Shown in pieces: positions 47,001-53,000 of a stretch of DNA of 64,000 bases. The DNA comes from Mytilus edulis (lineage: Eukaryota). The position numbers were made by a program. Positions within the stretch are counted from its first letter, which is position 1; every line of letters starts with the position of its first letter. The stretch spans positions 22,878,001-22,942,000 of the forward strand of contig NC_092351.1 of assembly GCF_963676685.1 (NCBI RefSeq), in the 5' to 3' direction.

Positions 47001-50000
47001 TTTAACAGTTTTATGTGATGTGAAGCATGTTGGGAGAGGGTCGAGCGTTCACAAATATAATTTACTCCGTTGACAAAGTTGTAGATCATATATACTTTCA
47101 TGTAATTTTTTTTGCATTTTCAACATCAATTTACATTGTCAATTTGATTTGTATCGTTACCTTGTAGTTGTATCACACATATTATGACTGTTGCATCGTA
47201 TTAGGTCATATCAAAAGGTTGAGAACTTTCAGCTTTGTTTTGGTGATTGCAAGCATTCTAGTCCAGTCAATCTAGCATAAATTTGACCCTAACCCGAAAG
47301 TAATTGCAACAGAAGGTTTAAAGTTTCTTTAGATAAGTAAGTTTCTGAAAAAATATAATATACAGATAAAAACAATTCCAAATTTTCATATTATTTTTTC
47401 AAAATGGTTACAAAGCTTCAAATTTGCAATTTCTTTAAAGAAAAATGCTCGAAAAAAAATAAAACTACCCATAACACTTCGGTTTTGTACATTTCATGAG
47501 CAGAAGATTATATTATTTAGTAAAATACAAATTTATTACCCCATCAAAGTATCATACATTACATAAATTTCGAGGAAAACAACGAAAACCTGACCACAAA
47601 AGACTAATTTTTGAAAGAACTATCTCCCCTTCCAATGTTAATTTCTTAATTGTTAAAAATGCTGATTTTGAGTTTTCCTCAAGTTAGATTTAATGGGACT
47701 TTTTTTCTGTGTATATAAAGGGCATAATGCTGTAGATTAGAACTAAAACATTTTCTGTTGAATTAGTTTGAGGTTAAATCTTAGTTTGACTGGACTATTC
47801 TTTGACGTGGTTGTATTACTGTAATTTCATTTATTTTCATTGGCTACTTATGTTCGTGGATATTACATTTCGTGGTTGATAAATCTACAGTATTTAATTT
47901 TGATTGCTGTGACATTTTGTTGTTTAATATATCGATATAACAGAGTTGGGTGCTTTTCACTGAAATGATTTTCATTTTACGTTACGTAATGTATCTTTTT
48001 GTTAATTCACTGATACGTTTAACCATGGAATTTCGTTAGTAACTATATTGTAACATGTAGCTTTATTCATTGCTGTATTGTTTAGTGTATGACCGCTTTT
48101 TCAAATTTCTACAAGAAGAAATATTAGGGTTAACCTTCTGTAGAAATATTAATAGAAAGAAAATTTTAAATAGCAATTATACACAACAAATAAAGATCTG
48201 CATATGAGCTAATTGTCTAGATCTACAAATGTAGAAGTAAATTCTAAATGTTTAATCAGGCTTTTGTTTCTTGTCATTCTCACATTTACGAATATATACA
48301 AAAAACATGAAACATAAACTCATCAATTGAGTACACAATACTCTCGTTTCGTCTGCAAAACACTCATCCGTGACAAAAAAATATATAGTTCTTTTAAATA
48401 CATATCTCCAGTCACAAAACAGTCCAAAATATCTGGAAACCAATGCCAAATAGAATAACTAATAATATTCCTGTAGAGAGAAGGAAATATCAATATTGAA
48501 TTTTGAATTCGTAGTTAGTAACTTTCCGTGATCATTTAGTTTTCTAAAACTTTTTCAAATATCAATGGTTGATGTTTTTCACATCACAATTTACATTACT
48601 GCAGTAGCATTATGTTTATCAAACTATCATTGCTAGTTTTTTTAAACATGAATTTTATACAATTAACAAACCGGTTTTAGTGGGGTTCGTGTTGCTCAGT
48701 TTTCTATGTTGTGTTTTTTGTACTGCTGTCTTTCTTTTGGTCTTGTCTCTTTTTTTTGCCATGGCTTTGTCAGTTTTTTTTTCGACTTATGAGTTTGAAT
48801 GTCCCTTTGATATTTTTCGCTCCTTAAGCCTGCATGTATCATGGCATTATTTTGTTTGAGTAATCCTCACATTTACATAGTTACCAGTGCTATAATCATT
48901 TGGTATTTAACGCTGTCTGTTCTGCTGTAAGACATGTGTATGTGTGTGTTATAACTTATTTTTTTGTAATATTATTTAAAACCTACTGGTTGTATGTGAT
49001 CTAGTTAACAAATGAAGATATTTAACTTCATTTGTAGAATAATTCATGTGATTCCGTTAGAGAATAAGTACCTTCGCTGTTGGAAAAGGAGCCATTCACC
49101 TGCAAACAACTGTAACCACCCTTTTTAAAACCTAATCCAGGTAGGAACTGGCACTGAAATAAAGTTGTAATTTGCCATGAAATACGACTTTAAAATATAC
49201 ATGTATGATGTATATTTATTAAAAAAAAGACAGCTATTTCTTTTAAATTAGTATGAAAGGGATAAAAGGTTGTTGTACAAAATTCAAATTAGAATTAAAT
49301 AAGAAAATTTCCGTTCTCCCTAAACTTTTATGACAGGTCGTTCCTTTGTTTTGTGAAATTACATAACAATTACTTATTTTTCCACAAAAAAGAGGAAAAA
49401 GTCAAAAAGAACACCAAGGGAACACAAACATTTAAAGAAATACTAAATACACCACGATAAAAAAAAAAGAAAACGAAAACGACAAACAGTACTCTACAAA
49501 AACTTCAAAAAACAAAACGAATGAACGACAATTAGGAACTCACCAAATTCGTGAATTACCTCAGGTGATAGAGTATCTGTTCAGACATTTATAGACCATA
49601 TTTTGTAACAAGTCAGTAAAATAACATGAAATTTTATTTTATTCTGATATATCGATCTGACTTGCACACAAAAAGTAATTTAGGACATTTCAATAGTAAG
49701 TAGATGAGGTGAACAAAATATCAAATTAATGTCATGTTTTAATTTACCTTTGTATCGGGAAGACATTCGTGAGTGCCTCTGAATACATTTAGGAATATAT
49801 CAATAGATTCATCATCGTCATCAAGGTCACATTGATTGATATCAGTATCGTTTAAGTTCATATCTATGAATGCAACACCTCTAAAAACAAAATTGAAAAA
49901 ATCAGTTCCCTTTTTCTGAACGTGCATAGTTAACTAAAGGTGCGAGTGAAATAGAATATGAATCATGTTGCTTCAAAACTTATATAGCACATGTTGAATT

Positions 50001-53000
50001 AAACTAGTCCTCCTTTATTGCTACCCGATTAAACATCGGCCTTTACTGTATATAAGCATATAACGTACAACTGAGGAGACTAGTGGATCAGGAACTGCTT
50101 ACCCTTCCAGAGTACATAATTTCATGTGTTGGGTTTGGTTAAATTCGTTACTTTTTATTTTAGTTTTTTTTGTGAAATGTTTTGTAAACTGTTACAAACA
50201 TTTTGTTTCGTATTGATTTGTTAACAACATATCCGGTTTTTTTTTCAGATTAAGTCTTTAAAAAGAAAAAGGAAAAATTATTAAAAATGTGTACTGGAAA
50301 TTTAAATATGTCTTACTTGAATGCGGGCTTTCCAGTGGCATCTTGTCCAAATATTGGCACAGAAAATGTAACCAACCAACTATCACTAAATCCACAATCA
50401 AAATAAGGTTGACTCCAGTATCCATCTTCTTGTTTTGCAAAATACATCACGATATTCTCATCTTGAATGTCCGTGCTGTCATTCCTATTTCATAAGATTA
50501 TGAATAAGAAAATTATACGGGTCAATTAAACGTATTAAACAGTTATTGTTACCGGTACTATAGTTGCATGGGTTTTAGATAACTTCTTTCAATGTGAAAT
50601 GTCAAAAAGACATTAAGTAAGGAATGTAATTAGAGACTGTGATATGGATGATAAATCTTTCATAGTAACTGTAAAATTCTACCCAAATGTTTATCTATTT
50701 AGATTTGGGGTCGATGCGGAGCTTACTATATTGTTTCGTTGTTTTACATCTTAAAGTCTTTGATTTTATTTTTGTGTCGTTTATTAGTTTCATCATTGAC
50801 CTAATCCCGCATTCTCCTTTATTCGGTGTGACTGTATTTATACAGAAGATAAAAGTTACACTATAATGCAAACTTTCAAGATATAATGATGCAAAACCCT
50901 ATTTTTTTCTGATGTTTTATTCGTTTGCAGATTAATGCAATTGTTTGAGAAAGTAGCAAATTGTTACAAAGTAAAACTTAAATGTCAAAATTAAGAAAAA
51001 AGTTTACAAATAATCCAAATCCTAAGAAAATGTTTAAAACAATTGTTTAGTGCAAATTCACATCAGTATAAAAGTTATTTACTAACCTCTGGTGTCTTTC
51101 CGTTAGAATTGACGATGCATTATCCCACTTTCTTGACTCTAAGTTGTAATACCACTCTGAATCAACTGATGTTTGATACACATAAGAAAGCGATAAATCG
51201 TAAAGGCGAATAACTCCATGTTTATAATAAGCATAAGGTGCAAAAGCTTTGTATCTTGAAAATACATCTGGCTCAAACGCAAGACCAGAACTGAAAACTT
51301 GTGGTGATCCTGTCATAACGACATTTCTTGCCAAATTAAAGAATGTTAAATCTGGAATAGACTCCAATATTCCTTTGTTCTGATAAATTATTGTCGACAT
51401 GTAATTAGCATTATAAATAGCTAAGTTTGCATATCCATTCCACAGAGTGAAATCTAGGGTTAAGTAAAGATTAGACGCAGAGCACATGTCTGTATGAGTA
51501 TTTCCAATGATATTGAGAGCAGTGATTGCATCTGACTTACCACCTTTTACGAATAGTATAAGTCCATGCATCAAAATAAAACATATAAAGAAAAAAACCG
51601 AAACTCTACATGTTGTGTTCATCATCGACTGCATACACTTTCCTAAAAAAAAAGGTAAAATAAGTTATCTGGAAAACGAACTGTTTTCAATACACAATTT
51701 GTTTTATAACAACAAAGATAAGACAGATTTGTTTTTGTAATAATAAGGTAATGAAATGAATGACGCTATATGAACACTATTTTTTACATGCTTACAGAAC
51801 TAAAGAATTACTTGCTGGTATTAAAAAGCGATTAAAACTACTTTTGCTGTTCCACAACTTTATGAATACTTGACTGATAGAAGTCACCAAAGCAAACGTG
51901 CAATCGATAAAAGTAAAAAAACAACAACAAAGTCAGTGTAAAAGTAAGAGAACAAACAAGTTATTGTAAACTTACAAGACCAGTCAAGTCAGTCTTAAAG
52001 TAACAGAACAAAAGACGTCAATGTAAAATAACATAACAAACAAGTGAATACAAATGTAGCAGAATACACAAGTCAATTAACGTATAACAGAACAGTCCAG
52101 CCAGTGTAAAAATAACAGAACAGCCAGGTACGAAGTCAGTGTAAAAATAAAACAACAAAAAAAGGTAACAGTAGTATACCGCTGTTCAAAACTCGTAAAT
52201 CTATGAACAAAAACCAAAATCGGGGTAACAAACCAAAACTGAGGGAAACGCATTAGATATAAGAGGAGAACAACGACACTACATTAAAATGTAACACACA
52301 CAGAAACGGACTAAGCATTAGACAAAATCCGATGAGAATAACAAATATAACATCAAAACCAAATACATGAATTTGGGATAGCAAAAGTACCGTGACACGT
52401 CTAATAGTAATGTGAATTCACACTCAAATATAGGAGGAAACAAACGACACAACGGAAACACTACGTAAAAATGTTACACACACAGAAACTAACTATGATA
52501 TAACAATGGCCATTTTCCTGACTTGGTACAGGACATTTTTAAAGAAAACAATGGTAGGTTGAACCTGGTTTTGTGGCATGCCAAACCTTAGACAATGTTG
52601 AATATAACATTAAAAAATAAAATCACAAAAATACTGAACTTAGAAAATGACAACATAATATTACAGGACTACAATACAAATAAATAGAACATATTAGGCA
52701 AAGAAACACATGAATAATAGATAACAAAAGGCATCAGGTTTAAAATTCAATACGCCAAAAACGCGCCTCGTCCACACAAGACTTACCAGTGACGCCCAGA
52801 TATAAAAGTTCGAAAGTAAAAAAAAAGTACAAAGTTGTACAGCACTGAGGATCAAAAGTTGAAAAAGATTGTGCCAAATACGGCTAGGGTTTTCTGTTTG
52901 TGATAAAAACATCCTTATTATTTAGAACAATTTATGCTATTGCAAACAGTAAATTTTATCAAATGAATATAAAACATATACATGATAAAACTGAACAAAA

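What the first reader, a model, noticed from the sequence alone, without database searches (positions are those of the whole stretch)
47289..51642. Apparently soluble GPR158-type Cache-domain protein with no 7TM receptor half
Seen: four frame-consistent exons encode a signal peptide and the GPR158/GPR179 ectodomain motif series. The match breaks inside the EGF-like module: GGYSCLQ replaces the usual YxCxC. All three continuations I can build stop within about 30 residues: read-through to 49028, or splicing from 49100 or 49072 to the acceptor at 47344. An AATAAA lies at 46786-46791, a convergent gene follows, and I see no 7TM-like exons in the 46 kb downstream. Established: vertebrate GPR158 is a class C GPCR whose Cache domain binds glycine. 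Inference: this is a secreted, stand-alone Cache ligand-binding protein (carrier, decoy or co-receptor for amino acids or osmolytes) derived from a GPCR by truncation.
Basis: partly seen in the sequence, partly recalled or inferred. Interest (0 to 1): 0.8.

Follow-up and report, generated by a model that had tools for sequence, protein, structure and literature searches.

The report
Membrane-tethered mussel Cache protein without 7TM
A blue-mussel gene encodes only the ligand-sensing outer part of a GPR158-type receptor and ends in a greasy tail that probably ties it to the cell surface, so it is a receptor-derived surface protein, not the free soluble one first proposed.

Summary
The four exons are real and encode a GPR158/179-type Cache ectodomain (Pfam PF22572 E 1e-24; GPR158 structures E 2e-16; fold match to the GPR179 ectodomain). 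The donor at 49072 joins it and adds an 18-residue hydrophobic C-terminus followed by a stop.

The five exons translate exactly to a RefSeq Mytilus edulis protein of 329 aa ("metabotropic glycine receptor-like"). Proteins of 325-334 aa with the same tail exist in five Mytilus species or their transcripts. Unbroken 325-aa reading frames on contigs of 1330-2189 nt can only come from spliced mRNA.

No 7TM exon was found in the window, by Pfam, by tblastn with 16 relatives, or by a profile HMM over 3557 six-frame segments. In a tree the short forms nest inside 7TM-bearing mollusc receptors, so the 7TM half was lost.

"No 7TM half" is supported. "Soluble" is not. The end looks like a GPI-attachment signal (N303-G-S, six-residue spacer, hydrophobic tail). 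The EGF-like module is cut after its fourth cysteine, and the orphaned fifth cysteine is Q in all eight short forms aligned.

Function (surface ligand binder, co-receptor or decoy) is inferred. An older, widespread family of 7TM-less GPR158-type proteins with similar tails also exists in protostomes, which lowers novelty.

The parts
51087..51634 (-). Coding exon A. It runs from ATG 51634-51632 and covers residues 1-182 plus two bases. [quoted passage not shown] An AG at 51644-51643 behind a T-run suggests an upstream 5'UTR exon (inference).
50317..50484 (-). Coding exon B, the second half of the Cache core, including the family-conserved W-x-x-P-Y-F-D-C stretch.
49748..49880 (-). Coding exon C, the end of the Cache core and the start of the EGF-like module (D-I-N-Q-C, an acidic insert, C278).
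49072..49153 (-). Coding exon D. It holds C284 and C299 of the EGF-like module, Q301 in place of the fifth EGF cysteine, and the candidate GPI omega region N303-G-S. The donor GT is at 49071-49070.
48412..48470 (-). The acceptor AG is at 48472-48471. It completes the G311 codon, encodes the 18-residue hydrophobic tail (residues 312-329 = 48468-48415) and ends in the stop TGA at 48414-48412.
48062..48256 (-). The nearest candidate poly(A) signals after the true stop: ATTAAA 48256-48251 (155 nt downstream) and AATAAA 48067-48062 (344 nt downstream). Which one is used is unknown.
48675..48819 (.). A dispersed repeat of about 150 bp inside intron 4 (77-78% identical to 36355-36504 and 9817-9960). 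It does not overlap exon E.

Best explanation
The locus is a five-exon Mytilus edulis gene for a 329-residue precursor. Its parts are:
- an N-terminal signal-like hydrophobic segment;
- a GPR158/179-type Cache domain with its N-terminal helices;
- the first two disulfide loops of the EGF-like stalk;
- a C-terminal hydrophobic tail.

Most likely the tail is exchanged in the ER for a GPI anchor near N303. That would leave a glycosylated ectodomain of about 270 residues, probably dimeric, tethered to the outer leaflet with no transmembrane or cytoplasmic signalling part.

The gene arose in the Mytilus lineage from a 7TM GPR158/CG31760-like receptor gene that lost the lower stalk and the 7TM half. 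It has since been kept as several copies on one chromosome. I infer that it binds a small ligand in the Cache pocket, or a partner protein, at the cell surface. It would then act through another protein as a co-receptor, or as a decoy for the 7TM paralogues. Lipase cleavage could release a soluble form.

Shown: the gene structure, the homology, the absence of 7TM, the hydrophobic C-terminus, and conservation across species. Inferred: GPI attachment, dimerisation, ligand binding, and the co-receptor or decoy role.
For: Gene model:
- The five exons with canonical splice sites translate exactly to database protein P0004 (XP_071125323-25, M. edulis).

Homology:
- PF22572 at E 1.1e-24 over residues 206-301, and PF22673 at E 2.5e-12.
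- GPR158 chains at E about 2e-16.
- AlphaFold2 model with pLDDT 87.2 and pTM 0.79.
- Best Foldseek hits are 8irj_A (an orphan GPCR; the sequence of that entry is named GPR179) at E 7.5e-13, the GPR179 ectodomain 8d1b_A at E 3.5e-11 and target-normalised TM 0.68, and GPR158 7ewl at E 1.5e-8, followed by bacterial Cache sensors.

No 7TM:
- 0 of 93 ORFs of at least 70 aa match 7tm_3.
- 16 relatives by tblastn hit only exons A-D below E 0.1.
- A profile of 10 full-length receptors against 3557 six-frame segments finds only exons A-D; the next hit has E 0.71.
- None of the 4 other proteins more than 50% identical to P0004 among the best 150 listed of 443 representatives with E <= 0.001 shows a 7TM: no 7tm_3 match in the three scanned (P0008, P0009, P0013), and the fourth, P0082 of 81 aa, is too short to hold one and was not scanned.

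Anchor:
- Only two hydrophobic segments exist, residues 5-32 and 309-329.
- The tail reaches the last residue. With omega at N303, omega+2 is S305, the spacer is F306-G311, and the hydrophobic run starts at omega+9. This fits the published signal layout (bioRxiv 10.1101/838680, introduction passage read).
- N303 is D, another small residue that by my recollection is also accepted at the omega site, in the M. trossulus protein.

Constraint:
- 32 of 36 ectodomain positions conserved in 28 long relatives are kept in each of the 7 short forms in alignment A2.
- The fifth EGF cysteine is Q in 8 of 8 short forms aligned, and the sixth is absent. So no unpaired cysteine remains if the EGF pairing is the canonical 1-3, 2-4, 5-6 (pairing recalled; three EGF disulfides are stated in PMC8611064).
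- Variable columns among 8 short forms: signal 25 of 32, Cache 70 of 218, EGF-like 18 of 53, tail 6 of 18.

Expression:
- Uninterrupted 325-aa ORFs with the tail lie on unnamed contigs of 1330-2189 nt, which is only possible for spliced mRNA.

Origin:
- The short clade has support 100/99. It is sister to another 7TM-less Mytilus protein (100/98), and that pair is sister to Mytilus 7TM receptors (94/89).

Dimer:
- The homodimer model scores 0.84 against a best control of 0.31. That mark was reached by 21 of 30 proteins solved as pairs of one chain and by 0 of 23 solved as single chains.
- The three runs agree in at least 85% of contacts, and the partner's pLDDT is at least 66.
- The interface lies mainly on helices 66-85 and 95-110, which align with the alpha4/alpha5 dimer helices of GPR158 (PMC8611064).
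- Because GPR158 and GPR179 dimers are solved, this pass may reflect likeness only.
Against: - No GPI, signal-peptide or topology predictor was available. The anchor call rests on hydropathy and inspection.
- The last disulfide cysteine (C299) lies only four residues before the proposed omega site, a short linker for the transamidase. A plain C-terminal membrane helix is therefore possible.
- The N-terminal hydrophobic stretch of the window's protein is long (about 28 residues at the threshold used). It could in principle act as a signal anchor.
- The spliced-transcript evidence is for the 82%-identical cluster (M. coruscus/californianus type), not for this exact gene. For this gene I have only the RefSeq model, and I could not see what evidence it rests on.
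- Older ab initio models in three species end with the intron read-through peptide instead.
- The stem leading to the short clade is long (0.42 + 0.64 substitutions per site, against 0.19 + 0.18 for the 7TM sister). That would also fit relaxed constraint.
- The predicted dimer interface is no better conserved than the rest of the protein (15 of 47 against 73 of 226 variable columns). It is only 30% identical to the 7TM paralogue, against 41% elsewhere. Nothing therefore points specifically to heterodimers.
- No ligand is known. The position of mGlyR S172 is F here.
Confidence: 0.6

Rival explanations
1. One reading: the main product is a soluble, secreted Cache protein. It would end either in the intron-4 read-through peptide (stop at 49030-49028) or be shed from the membrane.
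For: - The read-through frame is open for 14 codons after G311.
- It is used by ab initio models in M. galloprovincialis, M. edulis and M. coruscus (P0158, P0159, P0164, P0167, P0009).
- A GPI-anchored protein can be released by lipases (general knowledge).
Against: - RefSeq models in four species (M. edulis, M. galloprovincialis, M. trossulus, M. californianus), and four unnamed 325-aa proteins read as one unbroken ORF on contigs of 1330-2189 nt, use the exon E tail instead.
- The tail is as conserved as the folded domains (6 of 18 variable columns), whereas the signal varies in 25 of 32.
- The read-through peptide lies in intron sequence, and its similarity between close species needs no selection.
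Confidence: 0.12
2. The protein is tethered by the tail acting as a true C-terminal transmembrane helix, with no GPI exchange.
For: - AlphaFold2 draws residues 309-328 as a helix.
- The linker between C299 and the tail is short.
- The tail has 18 hydrophobic residues.
Against: - No residue, and no charge, follows the hydrophobic run. Small residues stand at the spacing expected of an omega site (layout from 10.1101/838680).
- The unrelated protostome family with the same type of domain ends in classic small-residue-plus-hydrophobic-tail signals.
Confidence: 0.2
3. The gene is a decaying truncated duplicate (a transcribed pseudogene) with no function of its own.
For: - The stem branch after the loss of the 7TM half is long.
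- An M. coruscus model (P0013) looks broken, as does the related 330-aa family, which lacks a signal peptide as modelled.
- No functional data exist.
Against: - Intact frames of 325-334 aa occur in five species and in several paralogues.
- 32 of 36 family-conserved positions and all six ectodomain cysteines are kept, and the orphan cysteine is removed.
- Rates differ between regions.
- The fold prediction is confident.
Confidence: 0.07
4. The 7TM half exists but lies outside the window, or was missed, and is joined by splicing.
For: The window ends 48 kb downstream of the gene, and bivalve introns can be long.
Against: - Exon E ends in a stop codon that closes the ORF in every RefSeq model and transcript-derived protein.
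- No protein more than 50% identical to this ectodomain shows a 7TM among the best 150 listed of 443 representatives (three scanned by Pfam, the fourth only 81 aa long).
- No 7TM-like segment was found in the window.
- Two ependymin-like exons and retroelement relics lie downstream on the same strand.
Confidence: 0.02

Closest known systems
GPR158 (mGlyR) and GPR179, and their invertebrate relatives named CG31760-like, which are class C GPCRs
   Same: - A homologous Cache ectodomain with its N-terminal helices and the start of the Ca-binding-type EGF-like stalk (D-I-N-Q-C).
- The predicted dimer uses the same helices as the GPR158 dimer (PMC8611064).
- The nearest relatives are Mytilus 7TM receptors at 37-41% identity.
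   Different: - No 7TM and no cytoplasmic part, so no RGS7 docking.
- Only 4 of the 10 cysteines of the cysteine-rich domain are present.
- A hydrophobic C-terminal tail takes the place of the missing parts.
- The position of the mGlyR glycine contact S172 is F114.
Protostome 'GPR158/179 extracellular domain-containing' proteins. These are about 800-1000 aa, uncharacterised, and seen only as database names (for example Octopus LOC106873574 and Mytilus californianus LOC127724053).
   Same: A signal-like N-terminus, a GPR158-type Cache plus EGF-like module, no 7tm_3, and a C-terminal run of small residues followed by a hydrophobic tail.
   Different: - They carry two tandem modules, each with the two adjacent cysteines (Y-x-C-x-C) of the EGF-like module that the window's protein has lost, and end in a cysteine-arginine pair just before the tail.
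- They are old and widespread (molluscs, annelids, flatworms, rotifers, arthropods).
- In the tree, the related single-module rows P0095, P0106 and P0132 sit far from the Mytilus short clade. The window's gene is therefore an independent, recent origin.
Alpha2delta subunits of voltage-gated calcium channels
   Same: Surface proteins said to be GPI-anchored whose Cache domains bind amino acids and gabapentinoids, and which act through a partner membrane protein. From PMC9901441 I saw only the search listing and the start of the abstract; the rest is recalled.
   Different: A different Cache class (double Cache) plus a VWA domain. No VWA or dCache match was found here. There is no close sequence relationship.
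GPI-anchored decoy or co-receptors derived from signalling receptors (TRAIL-R3/DcR1, GFR-alpha, CNTFR-alpha). These come from recall, not from any call.
   Same: A ligand-binding ectodomain of a receptor family kept on a lipid anchor without its own signalling part, often arising by local gene duplication.
   Different: Unrelated folds. For the mussel protein neither the ligand nor the partner is known.

Membership tests
GPR158/GPR179-type class C GPCR | Cache-type ectodomain homologous to PF22572/PF22673 | tested here: met
   PF22572 at 87.2 bits (cut-off 28.1) and PF22673 at 47.7 bits. GPR158 chains at E 2e-16. Foldseek hits 8irj_A, 8d1b_A and 7ewl.
GPR158/GPR179-type class C GPCR | Complete cysteine-rich stalk: ten cysteines and five disulfides, made of an EGF-like part with three and a spiral loop with two (PMC11437087 section 10; PMC8611064) | tested here: not met
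   Only C256, C278, C284 and C299 are present. The fifth is Q301 in 8 of 8 short forms, and the rest are absent.
GPR158/GPR179-type class C GPCR | Seven-transmembrane domain (Pfam 7tm_3) | tested here: not met
   No 7tm_3 in P0004, in 93 window ORFs, by tblastn with 16 relatives, or by a profile HMM over 3557 segments.
GPR158/GPR179-type class C GPCR | Ectodomain homodimer through the alpha4/alpha5 helices | tested here: inconclusive
   The model scores 0.84 against a best control of 0.31, on the homologous helices. Like complexes are solved, so the pass may be from memory.
mGlyR (glycine-sensing GPR158) | Glycine-contact residues of the Cache pocket (only S172 could be documented; PMC11437087 section 12) | tested here: not met
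   S172-R173 of GPR158 align with F114-S115. The primary paper PMC10751545 is not held, so the other contacts went untested.
GPI-anchored protein | N-terminal secretory signal | tested here: inconclusive
   A hydrophobic segment at residues 5-32 after R10. No SignalP was available.
GPI-anchored protein | C-terminal signal: small omega and omega+2 residues, a polar spacer, and a hydrophobic run to the last residue (10.1101/838680) | tested here: met
   By inspection and hydropathy only: N303 and S305, spacer 306-311, hydrophobic 312-329 with nothing after it.
GPI-anchored protein | Lipid anchor shown biochemically | not testable with these tools
   Needs PI-PLC release, Triton X-114 partitioning or mass spectrometry.
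Protostome tandem 'GPR158/179 extracellular domain-containing' 7TM-less family | Two tandem Cache plus EGF-like modules, each keeping the two adjacent EGF cysteines (Y-x-C-x-C), and clustering with that clade | tested here: not met
   P0004 has one PF22572 stretch, against two in 8 of 11 proteins scanned. The tree places the short Mytilus clade with 7TM receptors, far from P0095, P0106 and P0132.
Alpha2delta / CACHD1 | VWA domain plus double Cache | tested here: not met
   No VWA or dCache family at E <= 0.1.

The most novel reading that the evidence does not exclude
Mussels turned a class C GPCR into a lipid-anchored, dimeric Cache 'sensor head' and multiplied it on one chromosome. It would work as a GPCR-derived decoy or co-receptor that tunes amino-acid or osmolyte chemosensing by the 7TM paralogues. 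It would also be the second, independent invention of this architecture. The first is an ancient, protostome-wide family of tandem-Cache proteins with similar tails that nobody has studied.
Probability: 0.25. Interest if true: 0.6.

Novelty: new variant of a known kind. Interest (0 to 1): 0.4.

Why it matters
- GPR158 was only recently recognised as a Cache-domain glycine receptor, and almost nothing is known of its invertebrate relatives.
- A natural, compact Cache module of about 270 residues that probably folds and dimerises without the 7TM half would be a convenient object for ligand screening and structural work. It would also be an example of how a GPCR ectodomain can be re-used as a tethered binding protein.
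- The gene model itself is already in RefSeq under an automatic name, and the effect is so far confined to one genus.
- The wider lesson is that proteins named 'metabotropic glycine receptor-like' or 'GPR158' in mollusc annotations are not all receptors.
- A large uncharacterised family of 7TM-less GPR158-type surface proteins also exists across protostomes.

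Tried and rejected
- **Weak 7TM-like hits.** I looked at 44938-44774 (tblastn E 0.74) and 44553-44383 (HMM E 0.71) as possible relics of 7TM exons. They are lysine-rich, low-complexity matches to a cytoplasmic tail segment with no credible exon context, so I rejected them as chance.
It gives short frames, but no protein in any search uses it.
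- **Short Cache-only hits.** I considered whether the many hits of 240-330 aa covering only the Cache part (P0077, P0079, P0081, P0086, P0100-P0102, P0107, P0108, P0110, P0125, P0126, P0140, P0144, P0146) are stand-alone Cache proteins. They stop where exon B ends and run into what looks like intron read-through, so I treat them as fragments.
- **Origin of exon E.** The only repeat in the region lies in intron 4, not in the exon. A MAFFT placement of the tail against TM1 and TM3 of the receptors is scattered, and I do not take it as homology.
- **Heterodimer with the 7TM paralogue.** Not tested. Interface identity of 30%, against 41% elsewhere, gives no lead.
- **Literature.** No paper holds both 'GPR158' and 'Mytilus'. 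Searches for PF22572, 'GPR158-like' and 'GPR158 ectodomain' gave 7 papers, of which 6 were listed, and none of those is on invertebrate 7TM-less forms. One search was badly framed and gave nothing useful. The primary mGlyR paper is not held.
- **Not available or closed.** I had no SignalP, NetGPI or DeepTMHMM, no Mytilus genomic or cDNA nucleotide sequence for dN/dS or synteny, and no model coordinates to measure disulfide distances. The genome-contig collection holds only bacteria and archaea, so I did not use it.

Full report
**What is in the sequence**

The feature lies on the minus strand. Exon A (51634-51087) starts with ATG and encodes 182 residues. Exons B (50484-50317), C (49880-49748) and D (49153-49072) continue in frame. 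Every intron begins with GT and ends with AG.
- Exon A alone retrieves four proteins of 325-334 aa at 78-100% identity. Three of them are named 'metabotropic glycine receptor-like' (Mytilus edulis twice, M. trossulus once) and the fourth is an unnamed record. That was 4 hits among 403 candidates.
- In Pfam, exon B reaches the cut-off for PF22673 and exon C reaches it for PF22572 (GPR158/179 extracellular domain). Exon A matches PF22673 below the cut-off.

I did not search or fold a model joined by myself. All whole-protein steps used the database record P0004. tblastn places it on the window in five pieces. A script check found it identical to the translation of the five exon intervals.

**The missed exon**

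The donor after 49072 joins an acceptor at 48472-48471. Exon E (48470-48412) completes a glycine codon, adds 18 hydrophobic residues and stops at TGA 48414-48412.

The read-through end (stop at 49030-49028) does occur in older ab initio models from M. galloprovincialis, M. edulis and M. coruscus. One of these is a chimeric model fused to a leucine-rich-repeat gene (P0009).

The RefSeq models of M. edulis (three genes on one 90.6-Mb contig), M. galloprovincialis, M. trossulus and M. californianus all carry the hydrophobic end. So do four unnamed 325-aa proteins read as single uninterrupted ORFs on contigs of 1330-2189 nt. In this window the coding exons are split by four introns and span 3223 nt from ATG to stop. 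An uninterrupted ORF of that architecture can therefore only come from spliced mRNA. This is expression and splicing evidence for the 82%-identical relatives, not directly for this gene.

**Homology and fold**
- P0004 matches PF22572 at E 1.1e-24 (residues 206-301, profile positions 2-91 of 96) and PF22673 at E 2.5e-12.
- It matches GPR158 chains 7ewl, 7she and 7ewp at about 2e-16, and GPR179 at 1e-4.
- An AlphaFold2 model built on a 50-row alignment has mean pLDDT 87.2 and pTM 0.79.
- The best Foldseek hits are 8irj_A (an orphan GPCR whose sequence names GPR179; E 7.5e-13), the GPR179 ectodomain 8d1b_A (E 3.5e-11, target-normalised TM 0.68) and GPR158 (7ewl, E 1.5e-8). Bacterial Cache sensor domains follow.

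Where GPR158 has Y-E-C-I-C, this protein has Y-S-C-L-Q.

The published structures describe a cysteine-rich stalk of ten cysteines. An EGF-like part has three disulfides and a spiral loop has two (PMC11437087 section 10 passage; PMC8611064, passage on the extracellular domain). The mussel protein keeps only the first four of these cysteines (C256, C278, C284, C299). The fifth is Q in all eight short forms aligned, and the rest are gone. With the canonical EGF pairing (recalled, not from a call), two complete disulfides remain and no orphan cysteine is left.

**No 7TM half**
- Of the 246 stop-to-stop ORFs of at least 55 aa, I scanned 93 of those of at least 70 aa. By my count I left out six: exon A's own ORF and five that lie inside or opposite longer ones.
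- None of the 93 matches 7tm_3, and only 4 match any family at E <= 0.01.
- tblastn with 16 relatives finds only exons A-D below E 0.1. Pfam found a 7tm_3 domain, partial in some, in 13 of those 16.
- A profile HMM of 10 full-length receptors, searched without filters against 3557 six-frame segments, finds only exons A-D (E 3e-31 to 3e-3). The next hit has E 0.71. That hit and a tblastn hit nearby are low-complexity chance matches.
- A search of 1.84 billion representatives returned 443 with E <= 0.001, of which the best 150 were listed. Among these, only four besides P0004 itself exceed 50% identity. They are fragments or the chimeric model, and none shows a 7TM; the shortest, P0082 of 81 aa, was not scanned by Pfam.

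**Where it came from**

I built a maximum-likelihood tree of the ectodomain from all 50 rows of alignment A2, with a midpoint root used for drawing only.
- The seven short forms form a clade (support 100/99).
- That clade is sister to a second 7TM-less Mytilus protein of 330 aa (XP_071153053, on another chromosome-size contig; 100/98).
- The pair is sister to Mytilus 7TM receptors (94/89). All of these sit inside a group (97/91) that holds 7TM receptors of Solemya, Littorina and Tubulanus (names).

The 7TM half was therefore lost, not never gained. The 330-aa relative still has the fifth and sixth EGF cysteines, so the truncation may have proceeded in steps. The stem to the short clade is long (0.42 + 0.64) and the crown is shallow.

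**Is it under constraint?**

I had no nucleotide sequences of the orthologues, so I could not compute dN/dS. The indirect evidence is as follows.
- Frames of 325-334 aa are intact in five species.
- 32 of 36 ectodomain positions that are at least 85% conserved in 28 long relatives are kept in each of the seven short forms in alignment A2. The long forms themselves keep a minimum of 24 and a median of 36. The four changes are V102A, M220L, C301Q and Y306F.
- Among eight short forms the signal region varies in 25 of 32 columns. The Cache domain varies in 70 of 218, the EGF-like part in 18 of 53 and the tail in 6 of 18.

Uneven rates and a tail as conserved as the folded domains argue against neutral decay.

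**The anchor**

Hydropathy finds two hydrophobic segments only, residues 5-32 and 309-329. The second reaches the last residue. Before it come N303-G-S, then a six-residue polar spacer. This fits the published layout of a GPI signal: small omega and omega+2 residues, a spacer, and a hydrophobic run from about omega+10 (bioRxiv 10.1101/838680, introduction passage).

I consider GPI anchoring the most likely fate, at about 0.6. A plain C-terminal membrane helix is the main alternative.

The caveats are that no predictor was available, and that the last disulfide cysteine sits only four residues before the proposed omega site.

**Dimer**

A homodimer prediction of residues 33-305 passed.
- The score was 0.84, against a best control of 0.31.
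- The mark was reached by 21 of 30 proteins solved as pairs of one chain, and by 0 of 23 solved as single chains.
- The runs agree in at least 85% of contacts, and the partner's pLDDT is at least 66.

The interface centres on helices 66-85 and 95-110. By the alignment, these correspond to the alpha4/alpha5 helices that form the GPR158 ectodomain dimer (F135, M139, W156 and L160 in PMC8611064 align with Y78, I82, F98 and A102). Because such dimers are solved, the pass may show likeness only.

The interface is not better conserved than the rest of the protein. It is 30% identical to the 7TM paralogue, against 41% elsewhere.

**Function**

The ligand is unknown. The only mGlyR glycine contact I could document, S172 (PMC11437087 section 12), aligns with F114. 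The same paper argues that GPR179, which has Y there, does not respond to glycine. I therefore would not call this a glycine binder.

My reading, by inference, is a tethered and probably dimeric Cache module. It would bind a small molecule or a partner at the cell surface and act through another protein, or as a decoy.

**Comparison and novelty**

The gene model is already in RefSeq under an automatic name. I found no paper on it. No paper holds both GPR158 and Mytilus, and nothing relevant turned up for PF22572, 'GPR158-like' or 'GPR158 ectodomain'. The supplementary lists of the GPCR survey PMC12716839 could not be seen.

While screening the 177 proteins held, 28 ended in a hydrophobic tail after the EGF motif. 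Nine were the Mytilus short forms and 19 were others, one of which is a truncated receptor.

Following one of these up (121 proteins at E <= 1e-20 among 6101 candidates) revealed an old family across molluscs, annelids, brachiopods, nemerteans, flatworms, rotifers and arthropods. Its members are about 800-1000 aa. Of 11 proteins of this family and its short relatives scanned in Pfam, 8 show two GPR158-type modules and none has 7tm_3. Those seen end in a run of small residues plus a hydrophobic tail.

So 7TM-less, probably lipid-anchored GPR158-type proteins are not unprecedented in databases, though as far as I could find they are unstudied. The window's gene is an independent, recent and smaller version of them. 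I rate it a new variant of a known kind, with interest 0.4.

**Left unchecked**

I could not check transcript evidence for this exact gene, dN/dS, synteny of the paralogues, dedicated signal or GPI predictors, or disulfide geometry (no coordinates). I did not establish the identity of any plus-strand neighbour. The metagenome and viral contig collections and the papers' supplements were closed.

Noticed in passing
outside the window: P0062, P0194, P0244, P0053, P0206, P0272, P0275 and others: A widespread, apparently unstudied protostome family of proteins of about 800-1000 aa. Members scanned in Pfam show two tandem GPR158-type Cache plus EGF-like modules and no 7TM, and those screened end in a GPI-signal-like tail, mostly behind a signal-like N-terminus. 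121 proteins matched at E <= 1e-20. UniRef names them 'GPR158/179 extracellular domain-containing protein', and a few records call them 'Fras1 related extracellular matrix protein'.
   Followed up: partly
outside the window: P0027 and P0176 (Paramacrobiotus metropolitanus), P0025 (Ramazzottius): In a tardigrade the GPR158-type Cache ectodomain is fused to a kinase-homology domain and a guanylate cyclase domain. The same sensor head therefore sits on a receptor guanylyl cyclase instead of a 7TM.
   Followed up: partly
outside the window: P0015, P0174, P0175 (M. edulis and M. galloprovincialis, 321-342 aa): A second 7TM-less Mytilus family, sister to the window's clade. It keeps the fifth and sixth EGF cysteines but, as modelled, has neither a signal peptide nor a hydrophobic tail. 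It may be incompletely modelled or decaying.
   Followed up: partly
window 51908-52122 and 53143-54548: Arrays of a 28-bp (and 56/66-bp) A-rich satellite-like repeat lie just upstream of the gene. They coincide with a strong AT skew at 52-54 kb (0.31).
   Followed up: no
window 36587-38179 (-), 35551-35844 (-), 10309-11130 (-): Retroelement relics. One is a 531-codon frame that I read as reverse-transcriptase-like by eye (no Pfam match at E <= 0.01), interrupted by one in-frame stop. Next to it is a DUF6451 match, and further downstream a separate RVT_1 fragment.
   Followed up: partly
window 7535-7915 (-) and 19962-20357 (-): Two exons matching the C-terminal part of the Ependymin domain (E 1.3e-6 and 4.1e-8). 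They suggest two ependymin-related genes downstream on the same strand.
   Followed up: no
window 48675-48819, 36355-36504, 9817-9960; also 43598-43934: A dispersed repeat of about 150 bp (77-78% identical copies), with one copy in intron 4 of the gene. There is also a 169-bp unit repeated twice in tandem at 43.6-43.9 kb.
   Followed up: no
outside the window: P0009 (M. edulis, 533 aa): An older gene model fuses a leucine-rich-repeat protein to exons B-D of this gene and ends with the intron read-through peptide. It is probably an annotation chimera.
   Followed up: no
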